A stretch of DNA of 32,000 bases from Kineococcus radiotolerans SRS30216 = ATCC BAA-149. GTDB taxonomy: Bacteria > Actinomycetota > Actinomycetes > Actinomycetales > Kineococcaceae. The stretch lies in the NCBI RefSeq assembly GCF_000017305.1, contig NC_009664.2, positions 4,710,001 to 4,742,000 on the forward strand, given 5' to 3'. The position numbers and the translations under genes were made by a program. Under the pieces are notes generated by a model that saw only the letters and a list, made by a program, of their open reading frames with translations, ran no database searches and was not told the DNA's origin. Numbering within the stretch: the first letter of the stretch is position 1; each line of letters opens with the position of its first letter. Below, one piece after another: positions 14,822-31,243 of this stretch.

Positions 14822-14884
14822 AGGGATCCTGCCCGACGGACCGGCTGAAGATGACGCATTCCCCCGCTGGACTCGAGCTCGCTC

Positions 14885-14953
14885 ATCGCCAGAAGCGTGA
14901 AGTCGCCGGCCGCCGGCGATAGGGCGCACACCGCGGGATGACCGTGAGGTCAG
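14885..14953 (+). repeat. Array repeat R19 (long form)
   Basis: atcgccagaagcgtgaagtcgccggccgccggcgatagggcgcacaccgcGGGATGACCgtgaggtcag. It contains the perfect palindrome TCGCCGG-CCG-CCGGCGA (14903-14919). Confidence 0.9.
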
Positions 14954-15953: not shown

Positions 15954-16029
15954 CGCGGAATTCGACACGACCGCGAGTCACGACCGCCCCGGATCGCGCA
16001 CTGAGCGCGGGATGACCGTGAAGTCGTTG
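15954..16029 (+). repeat. Array repeat R21 (long form, GAATTCGACAC subfamily)
   Basis: cgcggaattcgacacgaccgcgagtcacgaccgccccggatcgcgcactgagcgcGGGATGACCgtgaagtcgttg. Confidence 0.85.
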
Positions 16030-17186: not shown

Positions 17187-17256
17187 ATCGACAAGGCCGT
17201 GACGTCGCGGGCCCCGGCGACAGCGCGCACAACGCGGGATGACCGGGAAGTCATGG
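17187..17256 (+). repeat. Array repeat R23 (long form)
   Basis: atcgacaaggccgtgacgtcgcgggccccggcgacagcgcgcacaacgcGGGATGACCgggaagtcatgg. Confidence 0.85.
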
Positions 17257-17854: not shown

Positions 17855-17990
17855 TCATTGCAGGAGTGGGTGGAAGCCGCTCACATCCGGTGGGTCTTGT
17901 TCGTCAGCGCTGGCCCGGCAGGCGGGTTGCGGCTGGCTCACCAAGGTGCAGCAAGACGCACGGTTAGCGGTGATCATCACGATCCACGAT

Positions 17991-18069
17991 CGCGCGGAAT
18001 TCGACACGACCGCGGCGTTGCGGGCCGCCGGCGACAGCGCGCACAACGCGGGATGACCGTGAAGCCGAC
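17991..18069 (+). repeat. Array repeat R24 (long form, GAATTCGACAC subfamily)
   Basis: cgcgcggaattcgacacgaccgcggcgttgcgggccgccggcgacagcgcgcacaacgcGGGATGACCgtgaagccgac. Confidence 0.9.
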
Positions 18070-21020: not shown

Positions 21021-21113
21021 ACTCTCCTAACGCTGCCCGGAAGCGGGCTGTTGCGGTTGGAAGGACTTCGTTTTGACGTCACTTCCGCTGTCGACTTCCG
21101 GCACCCCTGGGTC

Positions 21114-21182
21114 ATCGACAAGACCGCGACGTCGCCGGCCGCCAGCGACAGCGCACAACGCGGGATGACCGTGAAGTCGTAG
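21114..21182 (+). repeat. Array repeat R25 (long form; last clear copy)
   Basis: atcgacaagaccgcgacgtcgccggccgccagcgacagcgcacaacgcGGGATGACCgtgaagtcgtag. Confidence 0.9.
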
Positions 21183-22020: not shown

Positions 22021-22070
22021 CCAGATCGACGACCGCACAACATCCGCAGATCGACATGACCGCAAAATTG
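22021..22070 (+). repeat. Possible degenerate terminal copy of the array repeat (R26)
   Basis: ccagatcgacgaccgcacaacatccgcagatcgacATGACCGCaaaattg. It keeps ATCGAC-GACCGC, GCACAAC and ATGACCG in the right order, but the GCGGG core is lost. Confidence 0.3.
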
Positions 22071-22164
22071 CTGGAGGCAATGGTTGCGGTAGCTGCCGCT
22101 GAGCCTTGTCGGCGCTCGGGGACTCCTGACTGCCTATGGCGGGGTAGACGCTGTGGGGCCGACG

Positions 22165-23133
22165 TCAACGGCGGCCCCTGCTCAGCTTGTGCTGCGTCTC
22201 AGGCGCACCCCGCCGGAGCCCATCCTGTTGGCCTCGTCGCTGCTGAATCTTTAACCGCTGGTGCTGCTCGCGGCGCTCACAGAAGGTCGCCAGGTGCTCG
22301 GCGGCCTTGGCCGCGGTGTCCAGCGGCAGGGCCTGGTCAGGACTCGTCGGGCCGGCCATGACCGGTCGCCAGGTGTCGCTGTCACGGAAAGCGACGATGA
22401 GGACGCCGTCGCGGTCGACGACCTGGCTGTGGAGGTTGGGGGCGCCGGGTCCGGCGAGGACGAGGACGGGCCGGACGGGCGTGTGGATGCCGTGGCTGCG
22501 CAGCAGGGCTGCGGTCTTGGTGGCGCCTTGGCGGGCTTGGCGGAGCTTGGACTCCAAGCCGTAGGTGTCTTCCAGGCTCTGCTGGCGGCTGAAGAGGGCT
22601 TTGACTTCGAGGGCGAAGCAGCCTTTGGGGGCCAGGACGACGTGGTCGACGTCGAAGTGCTCGAAGGGGATCGCGCTGATGACGCCGTACACGCCGTCGG
22701 TGGTGCGCAGCTCGTCCCCGACGTCGCCCTCGACGCCGCGGCCGAGCCGGGCCAGGAGGCTGCCGTCGGCCAGGGCAAGGAAGCCGGCCCAGCCGACGGC
22801 GGCGGCGCCGAGGAAGACGCCGAGGATGCCGGCCTGCAGCTGCGGGTGCTCCCGGGCGCCGTAGCTGAAGGAGACAGCCGCGAGAGCGAAGGCGGCGAGG
22901 AGCTTGGTGAGGTCACGCCAGTTAGCGCGCAGCAGGTGCCGGCGGCGTGCGCGGAGGTCCTGCTCGAGCCAGGAGGCGCGTCGGCGTCGGTAGCGAGGGT
23001 AGGGCAGGCGCAGCTGGCCGTATCCGCGGCGATCACGCAGCCATCTCACCAGCGCAGCATCGACGTGGTGCGGGCTGTGCTTGAGGTCTACACCCTCACC
23101 CGCGTCGGTCTCTCGTCCCCGCTGGTCTTTCAC
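22165..23133 (-). CDS. NERD (nuclease-related domain) protein with N-terminal TM helices
   Basis: 322 aa from GTG 23133. Two hydrophobic helices (LLAAFALAAVSF, GILGVFLGAAAVGWAGFLAL) precede FEHFDVDHVVLAPKGCFALEVK (22621-22670 region). This matches the NERD pattern D.DH.vi.p.G.f.iE.K. Confidence 0.7.
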   Translation of the reverse strand: MKDQRGRETDAGEGVDLKHSPHHVDAALVRWLRDRRGYGQLRLPYPRYRRRRASWLEQDLRARRRHLLRANWRDLTKLLAAFALAAVSFSYGAREHPQLQAGILGVFLGAAAVGWAGFLALADGSLLARLGRGVEGDVGDELRTTDGVYGVISAIPFEHFDVDHVVLAPKGCFALEVKALFSRQQSLEDTYGLESKLRQARQGATKTAALLRSHGIHTPVRPVLVLAGPGAPNLHSQVVDRDGVLIVAFRDSDTWRPVMAGPTSPDQALPLDTAAKAAEHLATFCERREQHQRLKIQQRRGQQDGLRRGAPETQHKLSRGRR

Positions 23134-23228: not shown

Positions 23229-25028
23229 ATGAGACGCGTGGATGCTCATGTCTCCCTGGCCTTGGCCTTGCAGTCCGGCCCCGGCACGGTCGCTGCCTTG
23301 CTCGGGGCCGGTGCGTCGGCGTCGGCGGGGCTGCCCACGGCGTGGGAGGTGCGGCAGGAGCTGATCCGCCGGGCCGCGCTCGCTGCCGGTGAGGCGGTGC
23401 CGACCGACCCCGAAGCATGGTGGTCTGATCGCGGTGGCAGCGCAGGCTACGACGGGCTGCTGGCGGAGCTGGCGCCCACGCCGGCGGGGCGGCGCGACTT
23501 GCTGCGGGGCTTCTTCGAGCCCACCGAGGACGGGCGCGAACGGGGGGAGAAGCGTCCCGGTGCGGTGCACCACGCGCTGGCCCAGCTGGTGGTCACTGGC
23601 GCGGTGCGGGTGGTACTGACGTTGAACTTCGACCGCCTCATCGAGACCGCGCTGCGCGAGGCGGGTATCGAGCCGGTCGTCATCGACTCTCCGGCCGCGG
23701 TGGAGGGGATGGAACCGCTGCAGCACCAGCGAGCGGTGGTGGTGCACCTGCACGGTGACTACCTCTCACCCGCGACGCTGAACACCCCCGAGGAGCTCAA
23801 TACCTACCCGGCTGCGCTCAACGCCTTGATCGATGAGGTCTTCGACCGTTATGGCCTGCTCGTCATCGGCTGGTCAGCGACGTGGGACAACGCCCTCCGA
23901 GCGCGCCTGCAGGCCGCCCGCAGCCCCCGCTACGGCACCTGGTGGATCGACCAGTTCCCCCTAAGCGGGCACGCCCAGGACCTGGCCAGCGCCCGTCGGG
24001 CCGCGGTGGCTATCGCAGATGCGGGGGTAGAGCTGGCGCGGGTGGTCGACGCGCTGCAGGCGCTCGCGGAACAGCGCCTGCAGGATCCCGTGGGGCCGCC
24101 CGCGGCTGTGGCCTTCGCCAAGCGAGCCCTGGCCGGGGCGAATGTGGCCATTGGTTTGCATGACACCCTCAGCCGGGAGACCGACCGGGTAGCGAACCTC
24201 GACGCTGTCCGCTCAAATGAGTTCAACGTGGGCGGTAATCAGCTGGCGGCCGTGTACGCCCGTCGTCGGGATCAGATTCTCGCCGGCACCGCCACGTTAA
24301 GCGCGCTGGTGGCTACCAGCGCTTACTGGGGAAATGAGCGCACCGATGCTTGGTGGTTACCCACCATCACCCGCTCGGTGCCACGCGAGATCGTCGGTGG
24401 ACTCACGCCGTTGATCGGCCTGCGTTTGGGAGTGGCGACGCTGCTGACCCACGCCGCCGGCATCGCTGCCACCGCCGTCCGTCGCGACGAGCTGGTTGCC
24501 CACTTGGCCGCCGGTAACCGCCTCACGTGGAATGACCAAATCCTAGAGGCGGCTGCGGTGCTGACCCCGGCGGTGTTGTGGGCAGAAGACGGCGCCGACG
24601 CCGAACTGCGCCTGCGAGAGTACTTGCGGCCGCTGCTGCAGAACCACCTCGCCCTCGGCGCCGCCGGGTATGAGCACGCGTGGGAGGACTGGGCCGCAGT
24701 GTGTTACCTCACCCGGCGGCAGGCGGGCACCACTGTGGCTGCTCCCCTCATGGTCATCGACGGCAACGAACCGTACGCGCCGGCCTTGAAGCGACTCAAA
24801 GGGCGAATCAAGGATTTACCGGAGAACACGGGCCTGTTCGCTCATGGCAATCTTGGCGGCAGGATCGGGCTGGCGTGGCCGCTCCTCGAACGCTACGAGA
24901 GTCAGGTCGCCGAGTGGGCCAAGGAGCTCGACCGGAACCACATTACTCCCTTTGGTGCCGGCATCGGAGGAGGCGTCATTCCTACAGGGCCGCGTTACCC
25001 CGGTCGTCCTGATTTGGCGTGGCGCTGA
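23229..25028 (+). CDS. SIR2-like (SIR2_2 type) domain protein, probable NADase-type defence effector
   Basis: 599 aa. LLGAGASASAGLPTAWEV (23301-23339), VVLTLNFDRLIE (Asn at 23625-23627) and VVHLHGDY (His at 23751-23753) reproduce the GAG.S..GlP.W / TTNYD / hLHG blocks of prokaryotic SIR2 defence proteins. The C-terminal roughly 350 aa is unrecognised. Confidence 0.8.
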   Translation: MRRVDAHVSLALALQSGPGTVAALLGAGASASAGLPTAWEVRQELIRRAALAAGEAVPTDPEAWWSDRGGSAGYDGLLAELAPTPAGRRDLLRGFFEPTEDGRERGEKRPGAVHHALAQLVVTGAVRVVLTLNFDRLIETALREAGIEPVVIDSPAAVEGMEPLQHQRAVVVHLHGDYLSPATLNTPEELNTYPAALNALIDEVFDRYGLLVIGWSATWDNALRARLQAARSPRYGTWWIDQFPLSGHAQDLASARRAAVAIADAGVELARVVDALQALAEQRLQDPVGPPAAVAFAKRALAGANVAIGLHDTLSRETDRVANLDAVRSNEFNVGGNQLAAVYARRRDQILAGTATLSALVATSAYWGNERTDAWWLPTITRSVPREIVGGLTPLIGLRLGVATLLTHAAGIAATAVRRDELVAHLAAGNRLTWNDQILEAAAVLTPAVLWAEDGADAELRLREYLRPLLQNHLALGAAGYEHAWEDWAAVCYLTRRQAGTTVAAPLMVIDGNEPYAPALKRLKGRIKDLPENTGLFAHGNLGGRIGLAWPLLERYESQVAEWAKELDRNHITPFGAGIGGGVIPTGPRYPGRPDLAWR

Positions 25029-25164: not shown

Positions 25165-28100
25165 TTACTGCTCCAGCTCCTTCTGGACAAGGATCGCCAC
25201 TGACGACCCGCGTCGAGCGAGGTTGTCGACCAGTTGCAGTAGAGCCCGACGCAGCGATCCAGGTTCGTGCTCCTCCCGCACCACATCTCGCAACCAGGTC
25301 TCGACGTATTGACTACGCCCCAGAATCCGAGACCCGTCGGGCCCAATCATCCTCAGGACGAGGCCCATTGCCTGGGGCGTACGTTCCAGCGCGTTGGCGG
25401 CCAGGCAGAGCAGCAGCCGGTCGACGAGGTCGGGGGACGGTTCGGACGCCGTCACCCAGCGATCGATCACGCGGGCGTACTCATCTGGCGGCCAGGAGGC
25501 TCCGGACTGCGGTATCGGTAGTAGCGCTTCGTCCAGTTTACGTCTCGATGCTTCTTGTCGGGACCGGCGTGATGCTTCCCGTGCAGACCGCGCCGCGGGC
25601 AGCAGCTGATCAAGCAGTCTGGGCCAGACCTCGAACGACCGTTGTCCCTGCGTGGTCGACACGGCCTGGAGCGCGAGTGACTCAACGACAAAAGCCAGCT
25701 CCTCGGGGGCAGGGGTGAACGCCGTGAGATAGCGGTCGAGGATGTCGTCATTGCCGTCGAGCACCGCGGAGGAGACCCAGAGACTGATCTGCTGACACCA
25801 GTAACGCGATCCGCGAAACCCGCGGGGGATCGCATCGGTGGGTCTACGCCTTAGGTCATACTCGACAAGCGCGGCCAGCGTTCGTCGAGCGCCCTCGCCG
25901 TGCGGGCAGTCACAACGTGCCGCCGCCCTTAGCCCGGGTAGCGCGTCCGCGGCGGTGTCGTAGTTCAACAGGGTGTCGGGATCGGTAAGCGCCTCCTCAA
26001 GAGGTTGCCTCAAACGCTTGCGGGGACGTTCTTGACCGTTCCACGGACCAACTCCTGCAGCCAGGATCCACTCAAGGTAGACGGCCATGGCGGTGGTGTG
26101 TCGTGCGTGAGTCCTCTGCTTCGTGCAGTCGGTGTCGTTCCACGCTGCGGCCAGCCCTTGCAGGAGGCGGTCTCTGACCTGGCGGGACTGACTGGCCGAC
26201 AGCATCTCTACTATGGAGGTGAACTGATCCTTATCTTTGCCGCATGCATCCAGGAGGAGGTCGTCGCTGAGCAGGCGGGTGATCGCGGTCGCGAGTGACC
26301 GGTCGGCGCCGAAGTCCCAACTCATGTCGCGGTCAGCGTCCGCGAATTTGGGCGTGTTCTCGTTCACGAGGCGGAGAAGTGTTTCCACGGCGGTGGGCAG
26401 CATCTGTAGTTCTGCCTCGCCGCCACGGGCCGCCTGCACTACGACGGCGGCCGCAGCCATCGCCAAGGTCTCGGCAGGGTTGAAGGCGATGCCGAGCTCG
26501 GAGTCGCTGCCCTCGTCGCGCACCATGGTCCCAACGGTGGTGTACAGCTGCGCTGCCGAGCCGGGCTGGTCTACTGATTCGTCGCGGATCTTCATGGCGG
26601 CGAACAGGTGGTTGGACAGCTCGAGACGGGTGCGGGCCTCACGGCCGCCGCCTTCTTCCAGTTGCTGTTGAAGATCAGAGGGCAACTCGACTGAAACCTC
26701 CAGCTGGTTCGGCTGGTTCTCGACCGGGTTGAGCCGGTAGTACTCGATCCGAAACATGGACGCGCGCCGCCGAGCGACGGCCAGCTCCGGGGAGCCCTCA
26801 GCGGGTTCACCTTGGCGAGCACGGGAGTTTGTCAAGAACCGTTCACCGGTCGCTTCGAGTTCACGGCGACGTTCCTCGTCGCCACCTAGTACGAGCTGTA
26901 TGACGACACCGTCGACCTGGGTGCTCAGCCCGGGCTCGCCGGTGTCCCACCCTGCACCACCACCGAAGATTCGGGACGTTTCCATGTCCCAGACGTCCGG
27001 CTCTTGGAGGAAGGGGTCTAGCAGTGCACCGGAAGTCGATGGGTTAATGAGCAGGAGGGAGTACCCCACGGCTGCCAGTGCCGGACTCACACCTGCGAGC
27101 AGGACATCGTCCAGGATTTGTTCTAGAGGCCGCTTGCTCACCTGTGCAACTGCCCATCGGCGCAGCGCCATTAGAGCCGACATGGCCGGGTAGGGCCCGG
27201 TACCAGCCCGCTGGTACCACCCCCAGGCAGAAGCGGGACCGCGATAGGTGCGGGCGTTCGACCAGTGCGGGAAGGTGAGTTCGAGAGCCAGTGGACGCTG
27301 CGGCCTGGAGAACGAAGCTTCTTCGCGTCCTCGGTGCCGGGTGGCGGCATCGACGACGGCACCCACCAGCCTCAGACCGTGGGCAGGTGAGTGGTCCAAC
27401 AGGACAGCGAAGGGCCCCCAGTCGGGCCCAGTCAAACCGAAACCGCGGCGGCGTGCGGTGCGGTGCGAGTGGTCGCGGATACCGTCCTCGTCGCCTGGAA
27501 CGCCCAGCCGTCGGCGGCCTCGCAGGGTGCGGCGCGGGGTCATCGGGAGCCGGCCTCGTGCACCATCCATGTCCAGCGGCCAGTCGAGGTAGTAGCAGCC
27601 AGCCAGTTCCAAGAGCAGATCGGGGTTGTCTCGGGCCAACGCGGCTGCAACGTCCGGATCTTCGATGATTGCTTCGAGGTCGTCGCCGCGTTCGACAGCT
27701 CGCTCGAGAAGCGGGCTGGCTTCGGCGGGGAGGTTCTGGCCGAGCAAGCCGAGGACGGCAAGGGCGGACTCGTAACGCTGCCCATACGTGGCATCCCCAG
27801 CCCAGCTGACCGTCGCGGCGCACAACCGCGATGAGTCGATGCCGAAGTCGCCCGGCCGCAGGCGGTGGAGTTCCAGACTGCGGAGCCATCGTTCCGTCAG
27901 CAACACGGCGGACGCTGCCAACCCTTCCGACAACTCCGCGGCGGTAGCGATCAGCAGTCCGATCACCGGGGCAGCCAGCACGCTGTTGAGAACGAGACTG
28001 GCACCATCGAGCGTCATGCGGTCGGGCGTCGTACGGTCGGTCGTCGCGAAACGAGTCGTCACCGCGATGAGCCGCGCGACATCCAAAAGACGCGGTTGTC

Positions 28101-30261
28101 CGGCGGTGTTGGGGACCAGCTCCTGTAGGTCGAGCCGCTGCAGACCGAGCCCCTGCAGGACAACCCCGGGGTCAGCCAAAGACAAAGCCGACTCGTACGG
28201 GACGTCACTCCAGCGGTCGCCGTCGCGGGCCGCGAGCCGTTCACAGACTGACAGTTGCTGCTTCCAGACAGCGCGCAGCTCTGCCGGGTCGCTCGCTGCG
28301 GACAGGGTGCGTTGTCCGGCCAAGCGGACTGCTCGCAACAGCGGACGAGGGGAGTGAACCTGTTCCAAAAGCGCCGGATCGTCGGCCAGGACCATGGCTG
28401 CTGCGTAGTCGGCCAGGACGTCGTGGGAAAACCGGTACGTCCGGCCGTGGCGCGTCAGGACGTCGTCGCTGACGAGGCCGCCCACTGCGGGGCCAGGAAC
28501 CGTTGACAGGGATGTGCTGCCCGTGCCGGTGATGACGGCTTCCGCCGCCTCCTCCCAGGCGCGGCTTCGCTCATGGGGTAATCCCTGCCCTGGACGCATC
28601 CCCTCGGAGCGTCGGACGACCGTGTTGTAGAAGAGGTCGAGGATGGTTTCCTCACCGATCGGGTCCTGCTCGGGCAGGGCACTGCCTGACCGGACGATGA
28701 GATCGACGAGGTACGGCCGGCGCAGGAGCTGATTACTGCGAGGGTGACGCAGAAGAGGCGCCAGGAGAGGGAAGGCCTGCTCCACCTCGTTCATCTCGTC
28801 ATCGGTGAGGTCGCCCACCGGCACGTGTGAAGTCAATCGATCACCGAGATGATGGGTCAGAGGGTCGGCAGCTTCTCGGCGGCAGGTGATGACGACGGTC
28901 CATGGCGGACTCTTCCGTCCGCCCGTGGGTGCCGCGTCCAGCAGGAACTCCAGCAGCCGTCCTGCGTCGGCCAGGGCGTTCTCGGCCCCGTCAATGAGCA
29001 GGATGCGAGACCCCGCGGTGGGTGCGGCTGCCAGCGCTGTGGGCAGGTGGGGGATACCCAGCTCGTCCTGAAGGCTGGTGGGACTGTCGCCGCCTCGCAC
29101 AGCAAGATTGATGGCCACCACCGTCGCGTTCTCGCCCTGCTCTTGCACACAGCGACGAGCCAGGACCGATTTACCCACACCGGCGCTTCCTGAGATCAGC
29201 ACCAGCCCACCGCCCGCAACAGCCCGGTCGATCTGATCGACAACGCGTGCGCGTTCCAGGCGCAGGGTCCCGCCGATCTGGTCGACGGTGCGTGCCAGCT
29301 CATCCGCCGACGCGGTGAGGACACGCTCGAGCTCGTGCCTGTGCTGGGGAGCGGTGTCCAGGGCGACACCTGCGGCCAGGAGGGCGGCCCGGAGCATGGG
29401 CACGTTGATGACGCCCGCGTTCGGTCCCCAGCCTTCAGCCAGCGTACGCAGCTGCGCGAAGAGCGAGCGCACCGACGGCGCCGCGGAGGGGAAGACCTGC
29501 GCGAGGCGGCTCAAAGTGTCAAGGAAGTCGCGCCCGTCCTCACCGATCTCCATGATCCACACGTGCAGATGACGCAGAAGGTCGTGGACGAGCCGGTCCA
29601 CCCCCAGCTCGTCGACCTCTAGGCCCTGTCCGGTGCTTTCCTGGTCGCCTCGTTCGGCTAGGACCCGCTCGACGGCGGCCTTGACGTGGTCGTACCGACC
29701 ACGGACCTCGGCGCTCATCGCTCCCGGCATGAGCAGCCCGAGGAAGGTGTCAACGCTGGTATGAGCCCGGGCGATGACGGTCAACCGGTGCAGCTCTTCC
29801 AGCTGGGCCCTCGGGCCGCCGGCGGCGAGGCCTAGACGGAGGCTGCCTGCGTCCAGCTCGTCGTGTCGGGTGGACAGCTCCTGCAGACACTGTCCCAAGA
29901 CGTCGAGGAACGCGCGGTCTGAGGGGGTGGGAGCCGCCCGGCGCTTGACCTGGTAGTCGATGCTCGATGGCGATGCGCCCTGATTGGAGGTCAGGACCAG
30001 GTCGTCCAGAGCGTGGCCTGCTACGCGCCGCTGTAGGGCGATGCTGGTGGGGGCTGTGTCCAGCCCTGGCATCAAGTCCCCGGTCAGCAACCGTCCCAGC
30101 GCGAGTGCGGCGAGGGTGTACTCCTCGATCGTGCCCGCCCCGCCGGTTGCCTCAGGCGACACCTGTGCCACACCCACTCGCCCCCCGTGAACGACCACAT
30201 GACCTGCTCTGATCGGCGACCCGTCCGATGGGGCGGGCCGCCAAGCCCTACGACAGATCAT
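25165..30261 (-). CDS. Giant STAND/NACHT-type P-loop NTPase with nuclease-like N-terminal domain and long helical C-terminal region
   Basis: Walker A LISGSAGVGKSVLA (29167-29190), Walker B RILLIDGAENAL (28981-29007) and VVITCRRE (NACHT-like hhhTSR). The N-terminus reads GGAGTIEEYTLAALALGRLL...ALDDLVLTS...IDYQVKRR (29941-30015), a PD-(D/E)xK / Cap4-DUF4297-like pattern. About 1,100 aa of helical sequence lie downstream. The ORF is open to 30414. ATG 30261 or GTG 30171/30177 (after GGGGGG) are more plausible starts. Confidence 0.8.
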   Translation of the reverse strand: MICRRAWRPAPSDGSPIRAGHVVVHGGRVGVAQVSPEATGGAGTIEEYTLAALALGRLLTGDLMPGLDTAPTSIALQRRVAGHALDDLVLTSNQGASPSSIDYQVKRRAAPTPSDRAFLDVLGQCLQELSTRHDELDAGSLRLGLAAGGPRAQLEELHRLTVIARAHTSVDTFLGLLMPGAMSAEVRGRYDHVKAAVERVLAERGDQESTGQGLEVDELGVDRLVHDLLRHLHVWIMEIGEDGRDFLDTLSRLAQVFPSAAPSVRSLFAQLRTLAEGWGPNAGVINVPMLRAALLAAGVALDTAPQHRHELERVLTASADELARTVDQIGGTLRLERARVVDQIDRAVAGGGLVLISGSAGVGKSVLARRCVQEQGENATVVAINLAVRGGDSPTSLQDELGIPHLPTALAAAPTAGSRILLIDGAENALADAGRLLEFLLDAAPTGGRKSPPWTVVITCRREAADPLTHHLGDRLTSHVPVGDLTDDEMNEVEQAFPLLAPLLRHPRSNQLLRRPYLVDLIVRSGSALPEQDPIGEETILDLFYNTVVRRSEGMRPGQGLPHERSRAWEEAAEAVITGTGSTSLSTVPGPAVGGLVSDDVLTRHGRTYRFSHDVLADYAAAMVLADDPALLEQVHSPRPLLRAVRLAGQRTLSAASDPAELRAVWKQQLSVCERLAARDGDRWSDVPYESALSLADPGVVLQGLGLQRLDLQELVPNTAGQPRLLDVARLIAVTTRFATTDRTTPDRMTLDGASLVLNSVLAAPVIGLLIATAAELSEGLAASAVLLTERWLRSLELHRLRPGDFGIDSSRLCAATVSWAGDATYGQRYESALAVLGLLGQNLPAEASPLLERAVERGDDLEAIIEDPDVAAALARDNPDLLLELAGCYYLDWPLDMDGARGRLPMTPRRTLRGRRRLGVPGDEDGIRDHSHRTARRRGFGLTGPDWGPFAVLLDHSPAHGLRLVGAVVDAATRHRGREEASFSRPQRPLALELTFPHWSNARTYRGPASAWGWYQRAGTGPYPAMSALMALRRWAVAQVSKRPLEQILDDVLLAGVSPALAAVGYSLLLINPSTSGALLDPFLQEPDVWDMETSRIFGGGAGWDTGEPGLSTQVDGVVIQLVLGGDEERRRELEATGERFLTNSRARQGEPAEGSPELAVARRRASMFRIEYYRLNPVENQPNQLEVSVELPSDLQQQLEEGGGREARTRLELSNHLFAAMKIRDESVDQPGSAAQLYTTVGTMVRDEGSDSELGIAFNPAETLAMAAAAVVVQAARGGEAELQMLPTAVETLLRLVNENTPKFADADRDMSWDFGADRSLATAITRLLSDDLLLDACGKDKDQFTSIVEMLSASQSRQVRDRLLQGLAAAWNDTDCTKQRTHARHTTAMAVYLEWILAAGVGPWNGQERPRKRLRQPLEEALTDPDTLLNYDTAADALPGLRAAARCDCPHGEGARRTLAALVEYDLRRRPTDAIPRGFRGSRYWCQQISLWVSSAVLDGNDDILDRYLTAFTPAPEELAFVVESLALQAVSTTQGQRSFEVWPRLLDQLLPAARSAREASRRSRQEASRRKLDEALLPIPQSGASWPPDEYARVIDRWVTASEPSPDLVDRLLLCLAANALERTPQAMGLVLRMIGPDGSRILGRSQYVETWLRDVVREEHEPGSLRRALLQLVDNLARRGSSVAILVQKELEQ

Positions 30262-30285
30262 CTTGCCCGAGGGGCTCCGTCTTGA

Positions 30286-31243
30286 CGCCCTCATCCCAGA
30301 TACGTCCACGATCGACGCGGTTGTCTCGATGAGCGCGCCCAACGGCACGAGCAGGCCGCCGTGTGGGCGGTGGGGGACCGCTACGCCGCGGCGCGCGGCA
30401 TCGCGGACGGGCATCCCGCTGGGTCAGCTGATCCTGGTCGGGCACCACAGCGAGGGCCGGGCCCGGCGAGACGCGGCCCGGATGGGCGCGCACATGGATG
30501 CCAGCGTGGCCCACACCGACGCAGCCGAGGAGGCGCGGCGGGCGGCGCGGATCGCGAAGGCGGCCACCGATGCCCGCTACAACCCGGTGACGGTGGCGAA
30601 GCGAGTGGAGCGGTTGACCCCCAGGGTGGGGGCCGAGGAGAAGGCGCTCGCGCACTGCGAGCGCGCGGTCGCTGCCGGGCAGGCCGCTGCTGCGGCCCTG
30701 AGCGCGGTTGGCGGCCCGGACTCAGACCTGGATCGGGGGCAGGTGCAGCCCGACCGTCCTCGGGCTGGGGAGAGCGCGCAGGGGGCCGCGGTGCGGTATG
30801 GGCTGAACATGGCCGCCCACGCGGCCGCAGTCGCTGAGCGGTTGCAGGCGCACCGTGCCGACCTGGCCCACTGGCAGGCGGTGCGTGCCCGGCAGGTCGC
30901 GGATGGGACGGCCACCGGCGTCGGCCGGCACAACGTGGCGGCCGGGGATCAGGTGCGGGTGCGTGGGCACTGCTACGAGGTGGTGCGGGCGAACGCGAAG
31001 ACGGTGACGGTGCTCGGCATGTTCGGGCCCCGCGCGACCCTGTGGCAGGAGGTCCAGGAGCACCGGCGGGGAGCAGGCGGGACCGGTGACCAGGCGAGGG
31101 CGGGGGGGGTGACTCAACCCCTGTTCACGGCCCGTCAACCTCCGGCCGCGTCGGGGCCGGGCGTCCCGGCCGCGCAGTCGTGGCCCTGTGACGATCCAAA
31201 TTTCTTCGGTACCTCCCGCGCCTGCGCATCTGCGGGACCCTGA
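30286..31243 (+). pseudogene. DUF3560-like gene, 5'-truncated and frameshifted
   Basis: IPLGQLILVGHHSEGRARRDAARM...ARYNPVTVAKRVERL matches the conserved GQPILVGHHSE..R / Y.P.TVA.RI..L core of DUF3560 proteins. The N-terminal about 130 aa of the family is absent. The sensible upstream sequence (LDERAQRHEQAAVWAVGDRYAAARGIADG) is in another frame, with a 1-nt shift near 30410. Confidence 0.5.

What the first reader, a model, noticed from the sequence alone, without database searches (positions are those of the whole stretch)
25165..30261. Giant tripartite protein: PD-(D/E)xK-like N-terminus, NACHT-like P-loop core, and about 1,100 aa of helical repeats
Seen:
- The N-terminal block reads GGAGTIEEYTLAALALGRLL ... 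IALQRRVAGHALDDLVLTS ... IDYQVKRR. It has the spacing of Cap4/DUF4297-type endonuclease domains (x-DD ... QxK), but with Gln where the first acidic residue is expected.
- Walker A is GSAGVGKS (29167-29190), Walker B is ILLIDGAE, and VVITCRRE follows.
- A very long Leu/Ala/Arg-rich region follows, suggestive of a TPR/HEAT-like sensor.
Established: the architecture effector - STAND NTPase - repeat sensor defines Avs and bacterial NACHT anti-phage proteins.
Inference: this is an Avs/bNACHT-like sensor with a nuclease-type (possibly degenerate) effector.
The start codon is unresolved between 30162 and 30414. The longest ORF would overlap the DUF3560 remnant.
Basis: partly seen in the sequence, partly recalled or inferred. 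Interest (0 to 1): 0.6.

Follow-up and report, generated by a model that had tools for sequence, protein, structure and literature searches.

The report
Avs4-like antiviral STAND nuclease gene
This intact gene of about 1,670 codons encodes an NLR-like bacterial immune protein with a predicted DNA-cutting head, an ATP-driven switch and a long helical sensor predicted to fold like that of the phage-portal sensor Avs4, so it is a divergent member of a known antiviral family and not a new kind of system.

Summary

- **Core (residues about 296-600).** It is a STAND NTPase. The best solved-structure matches are Avs4 and Avs3, then NLRC4, NLRP3, NOD2 and CED-4.
- **Tail (about 1,070 aa).** A confident model (pLDDT 82) matches the Avs4 portal sensor specifically (Foldseek E 1.8e-12, TM 0.58). 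Generic solenoids score TM 0.16-0.3. There is no sequence-level similarity.
- **Head.** It has the alpha-beta-beta-beta-alpha-beta topology of PD-(D/E)xK nucleases, with invariant E18, Q48, D57, D58, Q75 and K77. It has no Pfam match. Profile comparison links it to the head of PADLOC PDC-M54A and Avs2 proteins (97%), and those to Cap4/DUF4297 (78%). Gln48 replaces the Cap4 strand Glu, and Glu18 replaces the Cap4 helix Gln. I read this as a swap, not decay.

Neighbours are not conserved, and the gene was not found in 12 congeners.

Verdict: a single-gene, Avs4-like defence protein and a new member of a known kind. It fails the curated Avs4 cut-off. The scan has already noted comparable PDC-M54A-like STAND genes on other DNA.

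The parts
25165..30198 (-). Whole gene: Avs4-like STAND protein of 1,666-1,677 aa depending on which GTG is used (30198, 30177, 30171 or 30162). The stop codon is at 25165-25167. Residue numbers in this report count from the codon at 30174.
   Evidence: (P0002, 1677 aa, 100% identical).
29755..30159 (-). N-terminal PD-(D/E)xK / Cap4-like nuclease-type domain (residues 6-140). Invariant residues: E18 (30121-30123), Q48 (30031-30033), D57-D58 (30001-30006) and Q75-V-K77-R78 (29941-29952).
   Evidence: AF2 topology H12-31, E44-47, E59-63, E70-77, H87-102, E112-118 at pLDDT 85-95. Invariant columns. hhalign 97% to PDC-M54A/Avs2-type heads. In-register alignment with Cap4.
29290..29754 (-). Helical domain between head and NTPase (residues 141-295). 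It travels with the head as a module of about 300 aa.
   Evidence: AF2 helices 141-294. The same module of about 300 aa appears in proteins of about 300 aa and joined to other C-termini.
28375..29289 (-). STAND NTPase module (nucleotide-binding, helical and winged-helix domains, residues 296-600).
   Evidence: Foldseek top hits Avs4 8dgf, Avs3 8dgc, NLRP14, NLRC4, NLRP3, NOD2 and CED-4. Profile against PDB: 8dgf E 1.3e-4. NCBIfam Avs4 E 1.1e-6.
29167..29190 (-). Walker A motif GSAGVGKS (G329-S336).
28981..29004 (-). Walker B motif ILLIDGAE (D395, G396, A397 and E398 are invariant).
28873..28896 (-). VVITCRRE: strand followed by the invariant Arg432, in the position of the STAND sensor-1 'hhhTxR' motif.
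   Evidence: (E426-432). The motif assignment rests on general knowledge of STAND NTPases.
28705..28728 (-). LLRRPYLV: the nearly invariant P487-Y488-L489, in the position of the STAND 'GxP / GLPL' motif of the helical domain.
   Evidence: The motif assignment is an inference.
28405..28431 (-). FSHDVLADY: winged-helix motif with F582, D585 and D589 invariant and H584 and Y590 nearly invariant. It resembles the NACHT 'FxHxSxQEYLAA' and NB-ARC 'MHD' histidine motifs.
   Evidence: The motif assignment is an inference.
25168..28374 (-). C-terminal sensor (residues 601-1669): irregular alpha-solenoid with three beta-hairpins, predicted to adopt the Avs4 sensor fold.
   Evidence: AF2 pLDDT 82.4 and pTM 0.66. 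Foldseek 8dgf_A E 1.8e-12, TMq 0.58, 1220 columns; the next hits (CAND1, importins) have TM 0.16-0.3.

Best explanation
This is a one-gene antiviral STAND (Avs-type, NLR-like) immune protein.

**Shown**
- The gene is intact.
- It has an ordered three-part anatomy.
- The NTPase motifs are complete.
- The NTPase and sensor are predicted to fold most like Avs4.
- The head has PD-(D/E)xK topology and is distantly related to Cap4-type nucleases.
- The gene is strain-specific and sporadically distributed, and it lies among defence genes.

**Inferred mechanism, by analogy with Avs3, Avs4 and Avs7**
1. In uninfected cells the protein is a closed, auto-inhibited monomer.
2. The C-terminal solenoid binds a conserved phage protein. 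The best single guess is the portal protein of actinophages, because the sensor fold is that of Avs4.
3. Binding opens the ATP-bound NTPase, which oligomerises.
4. Oligomerisation brings the N-terminal domains together into an active metal-dependent nuclease (E18, D57/D58, Q75, K77).
5. The nuclease degrades DNA and aborts the infection.
For: - **Gene integrity and family.**
- **NTPase.**
  - Walker A, Walker B, the Arg after strand 4, the PYL motif and the FxHD..DY motif are invariant or nearly so.
  - The PDB profile search gives only Avs4 below E 1e-3.
  - Foldseek of a pLDDT 87.5 model puts Avs4 (1.2e-11) and Avs3 first, then NLR NACHT modules.
- **Sensor.** Foldseek gives Avs4 at E 1.8e-12 and TMq 0.58 over 1,220 columns. 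The next matches are seven orders of magnitude weaker.
- **Head.**
  - It has canonical alpha-beta-beta-beta-alpha-beta order with the conserved residues in the canonical places.
  - hhalign gives 97% (E 9e-11) to heads of PDC-M54A and of a bona fide Avs2.
  - Those heads match Pfam Cap4_nuclease members at 78% (E 2e-5).
  - All motifs align in register.
  - Related Cap4-like nucleases use a D...ExK triad and need oligomerisation (bioRxiv 10.1101/2024.10.24.620088; Lee et al.).
- **Modularity of the head.** It occurs in 2,239 clusters with many different C-termini.
- **Context.**
  - In the window the neighbours are a SIR2 gene (PADLOC PDC-S65) and a NERD gene.
  - Homologues lie next to Avs2, AbiJ, Fic, PIN, integrase and methylase genes, with no conserved partner.
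  - The gene was found in 4 of 400 other actinobacterial genomes and gave no DNA match in 12 congeners.
  - Its GC content is 66.3%, against 68.7% for the window.
Against: - Nothing here is experimental.
- The curated Avs4 model scores 26 bits against a cut-off of 1500, and PADLOC Avs4 gives E 6e-4.
- The sensor shows no HMM-level similarity to Avs4. Its identity in the structural alignment is 12-13%, so the ligand cannot be read off.
- The head has no direct hit to any Pfam or PDB sequence and none to Cap4 by direct hhalign.
- I could not run a fold search on the excised head alone.
- About half of the head superfamily (class B, 'GVRR') lacks the Gln and Lys of QxK, so nuclease chemistry is not proven for the domain as a whole.
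Confidence: 0.7

Rival explanations
1. The architecture and sensing are the same, but the head is not a nuclease. It would be an oligomerisation, DNA-binding or other enzymatic module, or a catalytically dead relic, and the killing activity would lie elsewhere or be absent.
For: - The head has no direct match to any nuclease family.
- Q48 stands where Cap4 has Glu.
- Class B relatives replace QxK by (G/A)xR.
- The same head also sits in front of a putative serine esterase in the retron type VIII accessory protein: PADLOC DUF626_VIII matches 17 of 40 modules (PMC7736814). In that protein another domain could be the effector.
Against: - E18, D57, D58, Q75 and K77 are invariant or nearly so in the full-length family, and they sit where PD-(D/E)xK catalytic residues sit.
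- Across the wider 40-sequence sample only G14, E18, Q48, D57 and D58 stay invariant.
- The E18/Q48 pair mirrors the Q/E pair of Cap4, so the number of acidic residues is kept.
- A basic residue (K or R) is kept at position 77 even in class B.
- The protein carries no other effector-like domain.
Confidence: 0.15
2. The gene is one part of a three-gene system with the adjacent SIR2 (23229-25028) and NERD (22165-23133) genes. The STAND protein would sense, and the neighbours would execute.
For: The three genes are adjacent, all have defence-type domains, and all lie in a strain-specific stretch.
Against: - Three homologue loci carry neither a SIR2 nor a NERD gene.
- The SIR2 gene is convergent with the giant gene, not co-transcribed.
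- The SIR2 gene belongs to a catalogued single-gene candidate, PDC-S65 (E 1.7e-141).
- The NERD gene has a separate 88% identical copy on another contig.
- The giant protein has its own effector-type head.
Confidence: 0.05
3. It is a half of the two-gene PADLOC candidate PDC-M54 that has lost its partner, PDC-M54B.
For: PDC-M54A is the best PADLOC hit (E 1.7e-9). The lengths are similar (1621-1657 positions). The heads are homologous. Earlier notes of this scan filed similar genes that way.
Against: - The hit is only 34 bits and covers positions 190-392 of 1621. A real member scores 490 bits.
- PDC-M54B was not found in this genome or in two genomes that carry homologues. That search rang in no genome, controls included, so it is only weak evidence of absence.
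- The sensor fold points to Avs4.
Confidence: 0.05
4. It is a non-defence STAND protein, for example a signal-transduction or transcription regulator of the MalT/AfsR type that is common in actinobacteria.
For: STAND regulators are frequent in actinobacteria. One distant relative (P0031) carries an N-terminal extension of about 90 aa that may be DNA-binding; I judged this by eye and did not test it.
Against: - This protein has no DNA-binding domain.
- It has a nuclease-type head and an Avs4-type sensor.
- Its distribution is sporadic and strain-specific, and it lies in defence and mobile contexts.
Confidence: 0.05

Closest known systems
Avs4 (AVAST type 4; E. coli Avs4, PDB 8DGF, bound to the phage PhiV-1 portal)
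   Same: - Single polypeptide of about 1,600 aa.
- Same order of parts: nuclease-type head, STAND NTPase, large helical sensor.
- Avs4 is the best PDB match for the NTPase by sequence profile (E 1.3e-4).
- Avs4 is also the best match by predicted fold for both halves: E 1.2e-11, and E 1.8e-12 with TM 0.58.
   Different: - Only 11-13% identity in the structural alignments.
- NCBIfam Avs4 scores 26 bits against a cut-off of 1500.
- No HMM-level match in the sensor or the head.
- The NTPase starts about 100 residues later because a helical domain of about 155 aa follows the head.
- From my own recollection of Gao et al. 2022, the EcAvs4 head is described as Mrr-like. This one is Cap4-like.
- No model-passing Avs4 was found in 301 sampled actinobacterial genomes.
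[quoted passage not shown]
   Same: The head is homologous (hhalign 97%, E 9e-11). The length and architecture are similar. PDC-M54A is the best PADLOC hit.
   Different: - The match is weak and partial: 34 bits, against 490 bits for a true member.
- The partner PDC-M54B was not found.
- Those heads carry Q (helix 1) and E (strand 1), where this family carries E18 and Q48.
Cap4 / DUF4297 nucleases (Pfam PF14130; CBASS Cap4, HerA-DUF4297, heads of SeAvs3 and SeAvs7)
   Same: - Same predicted core topology.
- Same order of motifs, aligned in register: G-rich loop plus helix 1, strand 1, D at strand 2, xVK in strand 3.
- Used as an oligomerisation-activated effector in defence proteins.
   Different: - No Pfam hit, even at E 10.
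- Direct hhalign gives 0.1-0.2%. The link holds only through the PDC-M54A-type intermediate (78%).
- The E/Q positions are swapped.
- The loop between strand 1 and the DD motif is 3-6 residues longer.
Retron type VIII accessory protein ('DUF626' putative serine esterase; PADLOC DUF626_VIII)
   Same: The first 140 or so positions of that model match the same head domain in 17 of 40 relatives (best E 1.1e-6).
   Different: The window protein itself does not reach the threshold. The rest of that protein is an esterase, not a STAND NTPase (PMC7736814).

Membership tests
Avs4 (NCBIfam NF041815 / PADLOC Avs4) | Score at or above the curated model cut-off over the full length | tested here: not met
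   NF041815 scores 26.2 bits against a cut-off of 1500, and only positions 181-470 are matched. PADLOC Avs4 gives E 6e-4 and 15 bits.
Avs4 (NCBIfam NF041815 / PADLOC Avs4) | Central STAND NTPase with Walker A, Walker B, sensor-1 Arg and winged-helix His | tested here: met
   Invariant or nearly invariant G329, G334, K335, S336, D395, G396, A397, E398, R432, F582, H584 and D585. The fold is closest to Avs4 and Avs3, then to NLRs.
Avs4 (NCBIfam NF041815 / PADLOC Avs4) | C-terminal sensor with the Avs4 fold | tested here: met
   The predicted structure (pLDDT 82) matches 8dgf_A at E 1.8e-12 and TMq 0.58 over 1,220 columns, and the next hits have TM of 0.31 or less. This holds by fold only; there is no HMM hit.
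Avs4 (NCBIfam NF041815 / PADLOC Avs4) | N-terminal nuclease effector (Mrr-like in EcAvs4) | tested here: inconclusive
   The head is nuclease-type by topology and motifs, but it relates to Cap4-type heads and shows no sequence match to the Avs4 head. A fold search on the head alone was not possible.
Avs4 (NCBIfam NF041815 / PADLOC Avs4) | Activation by phage portal protein, tetramerisation, anti-phage phenotype | not testable with these tools
   These need genetics and biochemistry.
Cap4_nuclease / DUF4297 (Pfam PF14130) | Match to the Pfam model | tested here: not met
   No hit at E up to 10 for 16 and for 40 family members.
Cap4_nuclease / DUF4297 (Pfam PF14130) | Profile-profile homology to bona fide members | tested here: inconclusive
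   The direct comparison gives 0.1-0.2%. Through PDC-M54A/Avs2-type heads it gives 97% and then 78%. The Cap4 alignment I used was a narrow Streptomyces clade.
PD-(D/E)xK phosphodiesterase fold | Alpha-beta-beta-beta-alpha-beta core with an acidic residue at the start of strand 2 and (D/E/Q)xK in strand 3 | tested here: met
   AF2 secondary structure H12-31, E44-47, E59-63, E70-77, H87-102, E112-118, with D57/D58 just before strand 2 and Q75-x-K77 in strand 3. These residues are invariant or nearly so. This is a prediction, not a solved structure.
NACHT (Pfam PF05729) / bNACHT | Match to the NACHT model above the gathering score | tested here: not met
   13.1 bits against 26.7, residues 404-429 (numbered on the 1,749-codon ORF, P0001) only. 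No bNACHT model appears among the PADLOC hits. NLR NACHT modules are nevertheless good fold matches.
PADLOC PDC-M54 (A + B) | Full-length match to PDC-M54A and an adjacent PDC-M54B gene | tested here: not met
   The A model gives 33.8 bits and a partial match. The B model was not found in this genome or in two genomes with homologues. The B model rang in no control genome either, so its absence is weakly established.
TPR / HEAT repeat sensors | Recognisable sequence repeats or Pfam repeat families | tested here: not met
   There are no TPR, HEAT or ARM hits in Pfam. The model is an irregular alpha-solenoid that matches HEAT proteins only at TM 0.16-0.3.

The most novel reading that the evidence does not exclude
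The N-terminal module of about 300 aa may define a very large, unclassified branch of the Cap4-like fold (at least 2,239 clusters at 50% identity, no Pfam family).

- In this branch the acidic residue has moved from strand 1 to helix 1 (E18/Q48 instead of Q/E).
- Half of the members (class B) have lost the QxK Gln and Lys.
- If this reflects chemistry or a substrate other than Mg-dependent dsDNA cleavage, the protein would carry a new effector type on an Avs4-type sensor.
- The sensor itself would then show that portal sensing by this fold extends to actinophages at about 13% identity.
Probability: 0.12. Interest if true: 0.55.

Novelty: new member of a known kind. Interest (0 to 1): 0.3.

Why it matters
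- **Reach of the Avs4 architecture.** It would extend the Avs4-type architecture to Actinobacteria. The curated Avs4 model found no passing member in 301 sampled genomes there, so annotation pipelines label these genes only 'ATP-binding' or 'hypothetical'.
- **A head domain for classification.** The head domain has no Pfam entry, yet it is present in thousands of protein clusters. These include heads related to those of Avs2 and PDC-M54A and of a retron accessory protein. A profile for it would improve defence-island annotation.
- **A testable idea.** The E18/Q48 swap relative to Cap4 offers a small, testable point about active-site plasticity.
- **Limits.** None of this changes the picture of how Avs proteins work.

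Tried and rejected
- **Sequence searches with the head.** Pfam, NCBIfam and PDB searches with the head alone, using 16 and then 40 members, gave nothing meaningful.
- **Direct hhalign to Cap4.** Comparing the head with an alignment of Pfam-confirmed Cap4 proteins failed (0.1-0.2%), as did a single Cap4 sequence. Only the detour through PDC-M54A/Avs2-type heads worked.
- **Viral structure library.** Searching it with the N-terminal model returned only AAA-type ATPases and said nothing about the head.
- **Sensor profile against PDB.** The HMM search found no Avs4 match.
- **Canonical Avs4 in the phylum.** I found none in 301 actinobacterial genomes, so no Avs4 sequence was available for profile comparison of the heads.
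- **Literature.** No supplementary tables of Lee et al. 2026 are held, so I could not look up whether this family has an Avs number. No paper in the library mentions PDC-M54.
- **Signals around the gene.** The promoter and terminator scan, tRNA scan and Rfam scan gave nothing.
- **Rejected: the 30414 start.** Homologues give it no support, and it overlaps the DUF3560 frame.
- **Rejected: a NERD-SIR2-STAND operon.** The context is not conserved.
- **Rejected: tandem paralogy in Saccharothrix.** The neighbouring giant gene is an unrelated Avs2 (BLASTP E 0.71; PADLOC Avs2 E 2.9e-240).
Full report
**The gene.** The minus strand is open from 30414 to the stop at 25165 (1749 codons). Homologues start 8-15 residues before the conserved SPEATGG motif. 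The real start is therefore one of four GTGs at 30198, 30177, 30171 or 30162. The catalogued product P0002 (1677 aa, 100% identical) uses 30198. A GGGGGG run at 30181-30186 lies 3 nt before 30177 and 9 nt before 30171. The stretch 30199-30414 has no homologue support, and it overlaps a plus-strand ORF with a Pfam DUF3560 match. I number residues from the codon at 30174.

**Family and distribution.** A search of 5.8 billion proteins returned 33 relatives, and every named one is from Actinobacteria: Sphaerisporangium, Kitasatospora, Kineosporia, Actinoplanes, Saccharothrix, Actinosynnema, Lentzea and Streptomyces. Most are 1,600-1,700 aa, 24-52% identical, and labelled 'ATP-binding' or 'hypothetical'. 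In whole genomes the family appeared in 4 of 400 other sampled actinobacterial genomes and in none of the same order. At DNA level, nothing between about 23087 and 30325 of the window matched any of 12 genomes of the same genus, while flanking segments did. The gene is slightly GC-poorer than its surroundings (66.3% against 68.7%). It is thus a sporadic, strain-specific accessory gene.

**The NTPase.** Pfam gives only sub-threshold AAA_16 and AAA_22 hits, and NACHT scores 13 bits on the P-loop. The family alignment shows a complete STAND motif set:
- Walker A, GSAGVGKS
- Walker B, ILLIDGAE
- an invariant Arg after the next strand (VVITCR-R432)
- a nearly invariant P-Y-L in the helical domain
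- a winged-helix FxHDxxxDY motif that resembles the NACHT and NB-ARC histidine motif

A profile of the family finds one PDB sequence below E 1e-3, E. coli Avs4 (8dgf, E 1.3e-4). A second, insignificant stretch in the sensor aligns W..YR...Y..S..MAL. NCBIfam Avs4 matches at E 1.1e-6, but with 26 bits against a cut-off of 1500. An AlphaFold2 model of residues 1-650, built with 14 sequences, has mean pLDDT 87.5 and pTM 0.85. Its best PDB fold matches are Avs4 (E 1.2e-11, 640 columns) and Avs3, followed by NLRP14, NLRC4, NLRP3, NOD2 and CED-4. The core is therefore a STAND NTPase nearest to Avs3 and Avs4. 'NACHT-like' holds only in that broad sense.

**The sensor.** The model of residues 600-1669 has pLDDT 82.4 and pTM 0.66. 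It is mainly helical, with three short hairpins and a few disordered loops. Foldseek against the PDB puts Avs4 chains first (E 1.8e-12, TM 0.58 normalised to the query, 1,220 columns). The next hits are generic solenoids (CAND1, transportins, importins) at E of about 1e-5 to 1e-4 and TM 0.16-0.3. No sequence profile similarity to Avs4 is detectable in this part, and Pfam sees no TPR or HEAT repeats. The tail is thus a predicted Avs4-type sensor, not a generic repeat array.

**The head.** Residues 6-140 are modelled with high confidence as helix 12-31, strands 44-47, 59-63 and 70-77, helix 87-102 and strand 112-118. This is the canonical PD-(D/E)xK order. E18 lies in helix 1, Q48 at the end of strand 1, D57-D58 just before strand 2, and Q75-V-K77-R78 in strand 3. 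All are invariant or nearly so in the family.
- *How widespread it is.* A profile of the head, run against 1.84 billion representative proteins, found 2,239 clusters at E of 1e-3 or less and 977 at 1e-10 or less. Protein lengths cluster around 1,650, 1,100, 940, 610-650 and 300 aa.
- *How modular it is.* The head and the following helical domain form a module that is joined to several different C-termini. This is the behaviour expected of an effector cassette.
- *Direct searches.* No Pfam or PDB sequence matches it. Direct hhalign to Pfam-confirmed Cap4_nuclease proteins fails.
- *The indirect link.* PADLOC models gave the lead. Of 40 modules, 17 match the N-terminus of the retron type VIII accessory protein model and 8 match PDC-M54A. 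I collected PDC-M54A-type heads from genomes and from an Avs2 protein that lies next to a homologue and aligned them. Against these, hhalign gives 97% probability (E 9e-11, 109 columns). That set in turn matches Cap4 at 78% (E 2e-5).
- *Motif equivalences.* A joint MAFFT alignment puts all motifs in register. Own E18 aligns with the Gln of the Cap4 'YQ' helix. Own Q48 aligns with the Glu of the 'CE' strand. DD aligns with ED, and QVK with SVK.

However, the change is reciprocal, and both residues are invariant in a 40-sequence sample of the superfamily. I read this as a relocated acidic residue, not a decayed site. One caveat remains: a large 'class B' of the superfamily has (G/A)-V-R-R instead of Q-V-K-R. 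The window's protein is class A.

**Context.** In the window the gene is convergent with a 599-aa SIR2_2 protein (PADLOC PDC-S65, E 1.7e-141), and beyond that lies a NERD protein. Three homologue loci have other neighbours and none in common:
- Fic, PIN and integrase genes
- AbiJ, endonuclease VII and an Avs2 gene 144 nt downstream
- a methylase and SUKH genes

PDC-M54B, the partner gene of the PADLOC candidate system, was not found in this genome or in two homologue-bearing genomes. That model rang nowhere, so this is weak evidence of absence. The gene behaves as a single-gene system sitting in defence or mobile islands.

**Mechanism (inferred).** The mechanism follows Avs3, Avs4 and Avs7 as described in the literature and from my own knowledge of Gao et al. 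2022.
1. The sensor binds a conserved phage protein.
2. The NTPase opens and oligomerises.
3. The heads are brought together into an active nuclease that destroys DNA.

The portal protein is the best single guess for the trigger, because the sensor fold is that of Avs4. At 12-13% identity I give that step about one chance in three.

**Comparison and novelty.** The protein works like Avs4 and shares its fold in two of three parts. It fails the curated Avs4 model, and its head is of a different type. The head is related to PDC-M54A, Avs2 and Cap4 heads, but it is in no family database. Effector swapping and sensor divergence are the rule in Avs families, and a recent census lists 589 STAND clades. 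I therefore class it as a new member of a known kind. Earlier notes of this scan describe comparable 1,651-aa and 1,663-aa PDC-M54A-like STAND genes in other genomes.

Noticed in passing
window 23229-25028 (+): A 599-aa SIR2_2 protein that matches the PADLOC single-gene candidate PDC-S65 over its full length (E 1.7e-141). It is convergent with the giant gene, with a gap of 136 nt. It is not found next to homologues of the giant gene.
   Followed up: partly
window 22165-23133 (-); G000 contig C2 8976-10012: The NERD-domain gene region (window about 22050-23086) has a second copy, 88% identical, on another contig of the same genome. That contig is possibly a plasmid.
   Followed up: no
window 21110-21179, 14877-14951, 15954-16028, 17187-17249, 17989-18067: A conserved element of about 70 bp, made of a GC-rich palindrome (GTCGCCGGCCGCCGGCGAC) plus the box GCGCACAACGCGGGATGACCGTGAAGTC. 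At least five copies lie in the window and dozens in genomes of the same genus at 80-94% identity. It has no Rfam match.
   Followed up: partly
L002 11910-16628 (Saccharothrix saharensis contig): A bona fide Avs2 (PADLOC E 2.9e-240) lies 144 nt downstream of the family member P0015 on the same strand. Its first 226 residues are a PDC-M54A-type head (E 1.8e-30). The result is two different Avs-type genes in tandem.
   Followed up: partly
proteins P0060, P0072, P0084, P0106 and many others: About half of the head-domain superfamily is a 'class B' with motifs GGGGTVLE / FQ / VDD / (G/A)VRR. It keeps E, Q and DD but replaces the Gln and Lys of QxK by Gly/Ala and Arg. Whether these proteins are active nucleases is open.
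   Followed up: no
proteins P0053, P0084, P0063, P0072: The same head module of about 300 aa is joined to other C-termini:
- a different P-loop (GSSTGKTRS), with a repeat-like tail in P0053
- a tail of about 800 aa without a P-loop (P0063)

It also occurs as proteins of about 300 aa.
   Followed up: no
proteins P0031 / P0069 (1749 aa): Distant family members carry an extra N-terminal extension of about 90 aa in front of the head. By eye it looks like a winged helix-turn-helix; I did not test this.
   Followed up: no
window 27490-27558 (-), residues 873-895: An Arg-rich loop (RGRLPMTPRRTLRGRRRLGVPG) is modelled as disordered. It is present at the same place in the closer homologues (absent in the most distant ones) and is followed by the well conserved EDGVRDH.
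   Followed up: no
window 30263-31243 (+): An ORF with a DUF3560 match covers only profile positions 34-112 of 124. Its 5' part shadows the upstream region of the giant gene. DNA of this gene is present in two genomes of the same genus at 78-84% identity, unlike the giant gene.
   Followed up: partly
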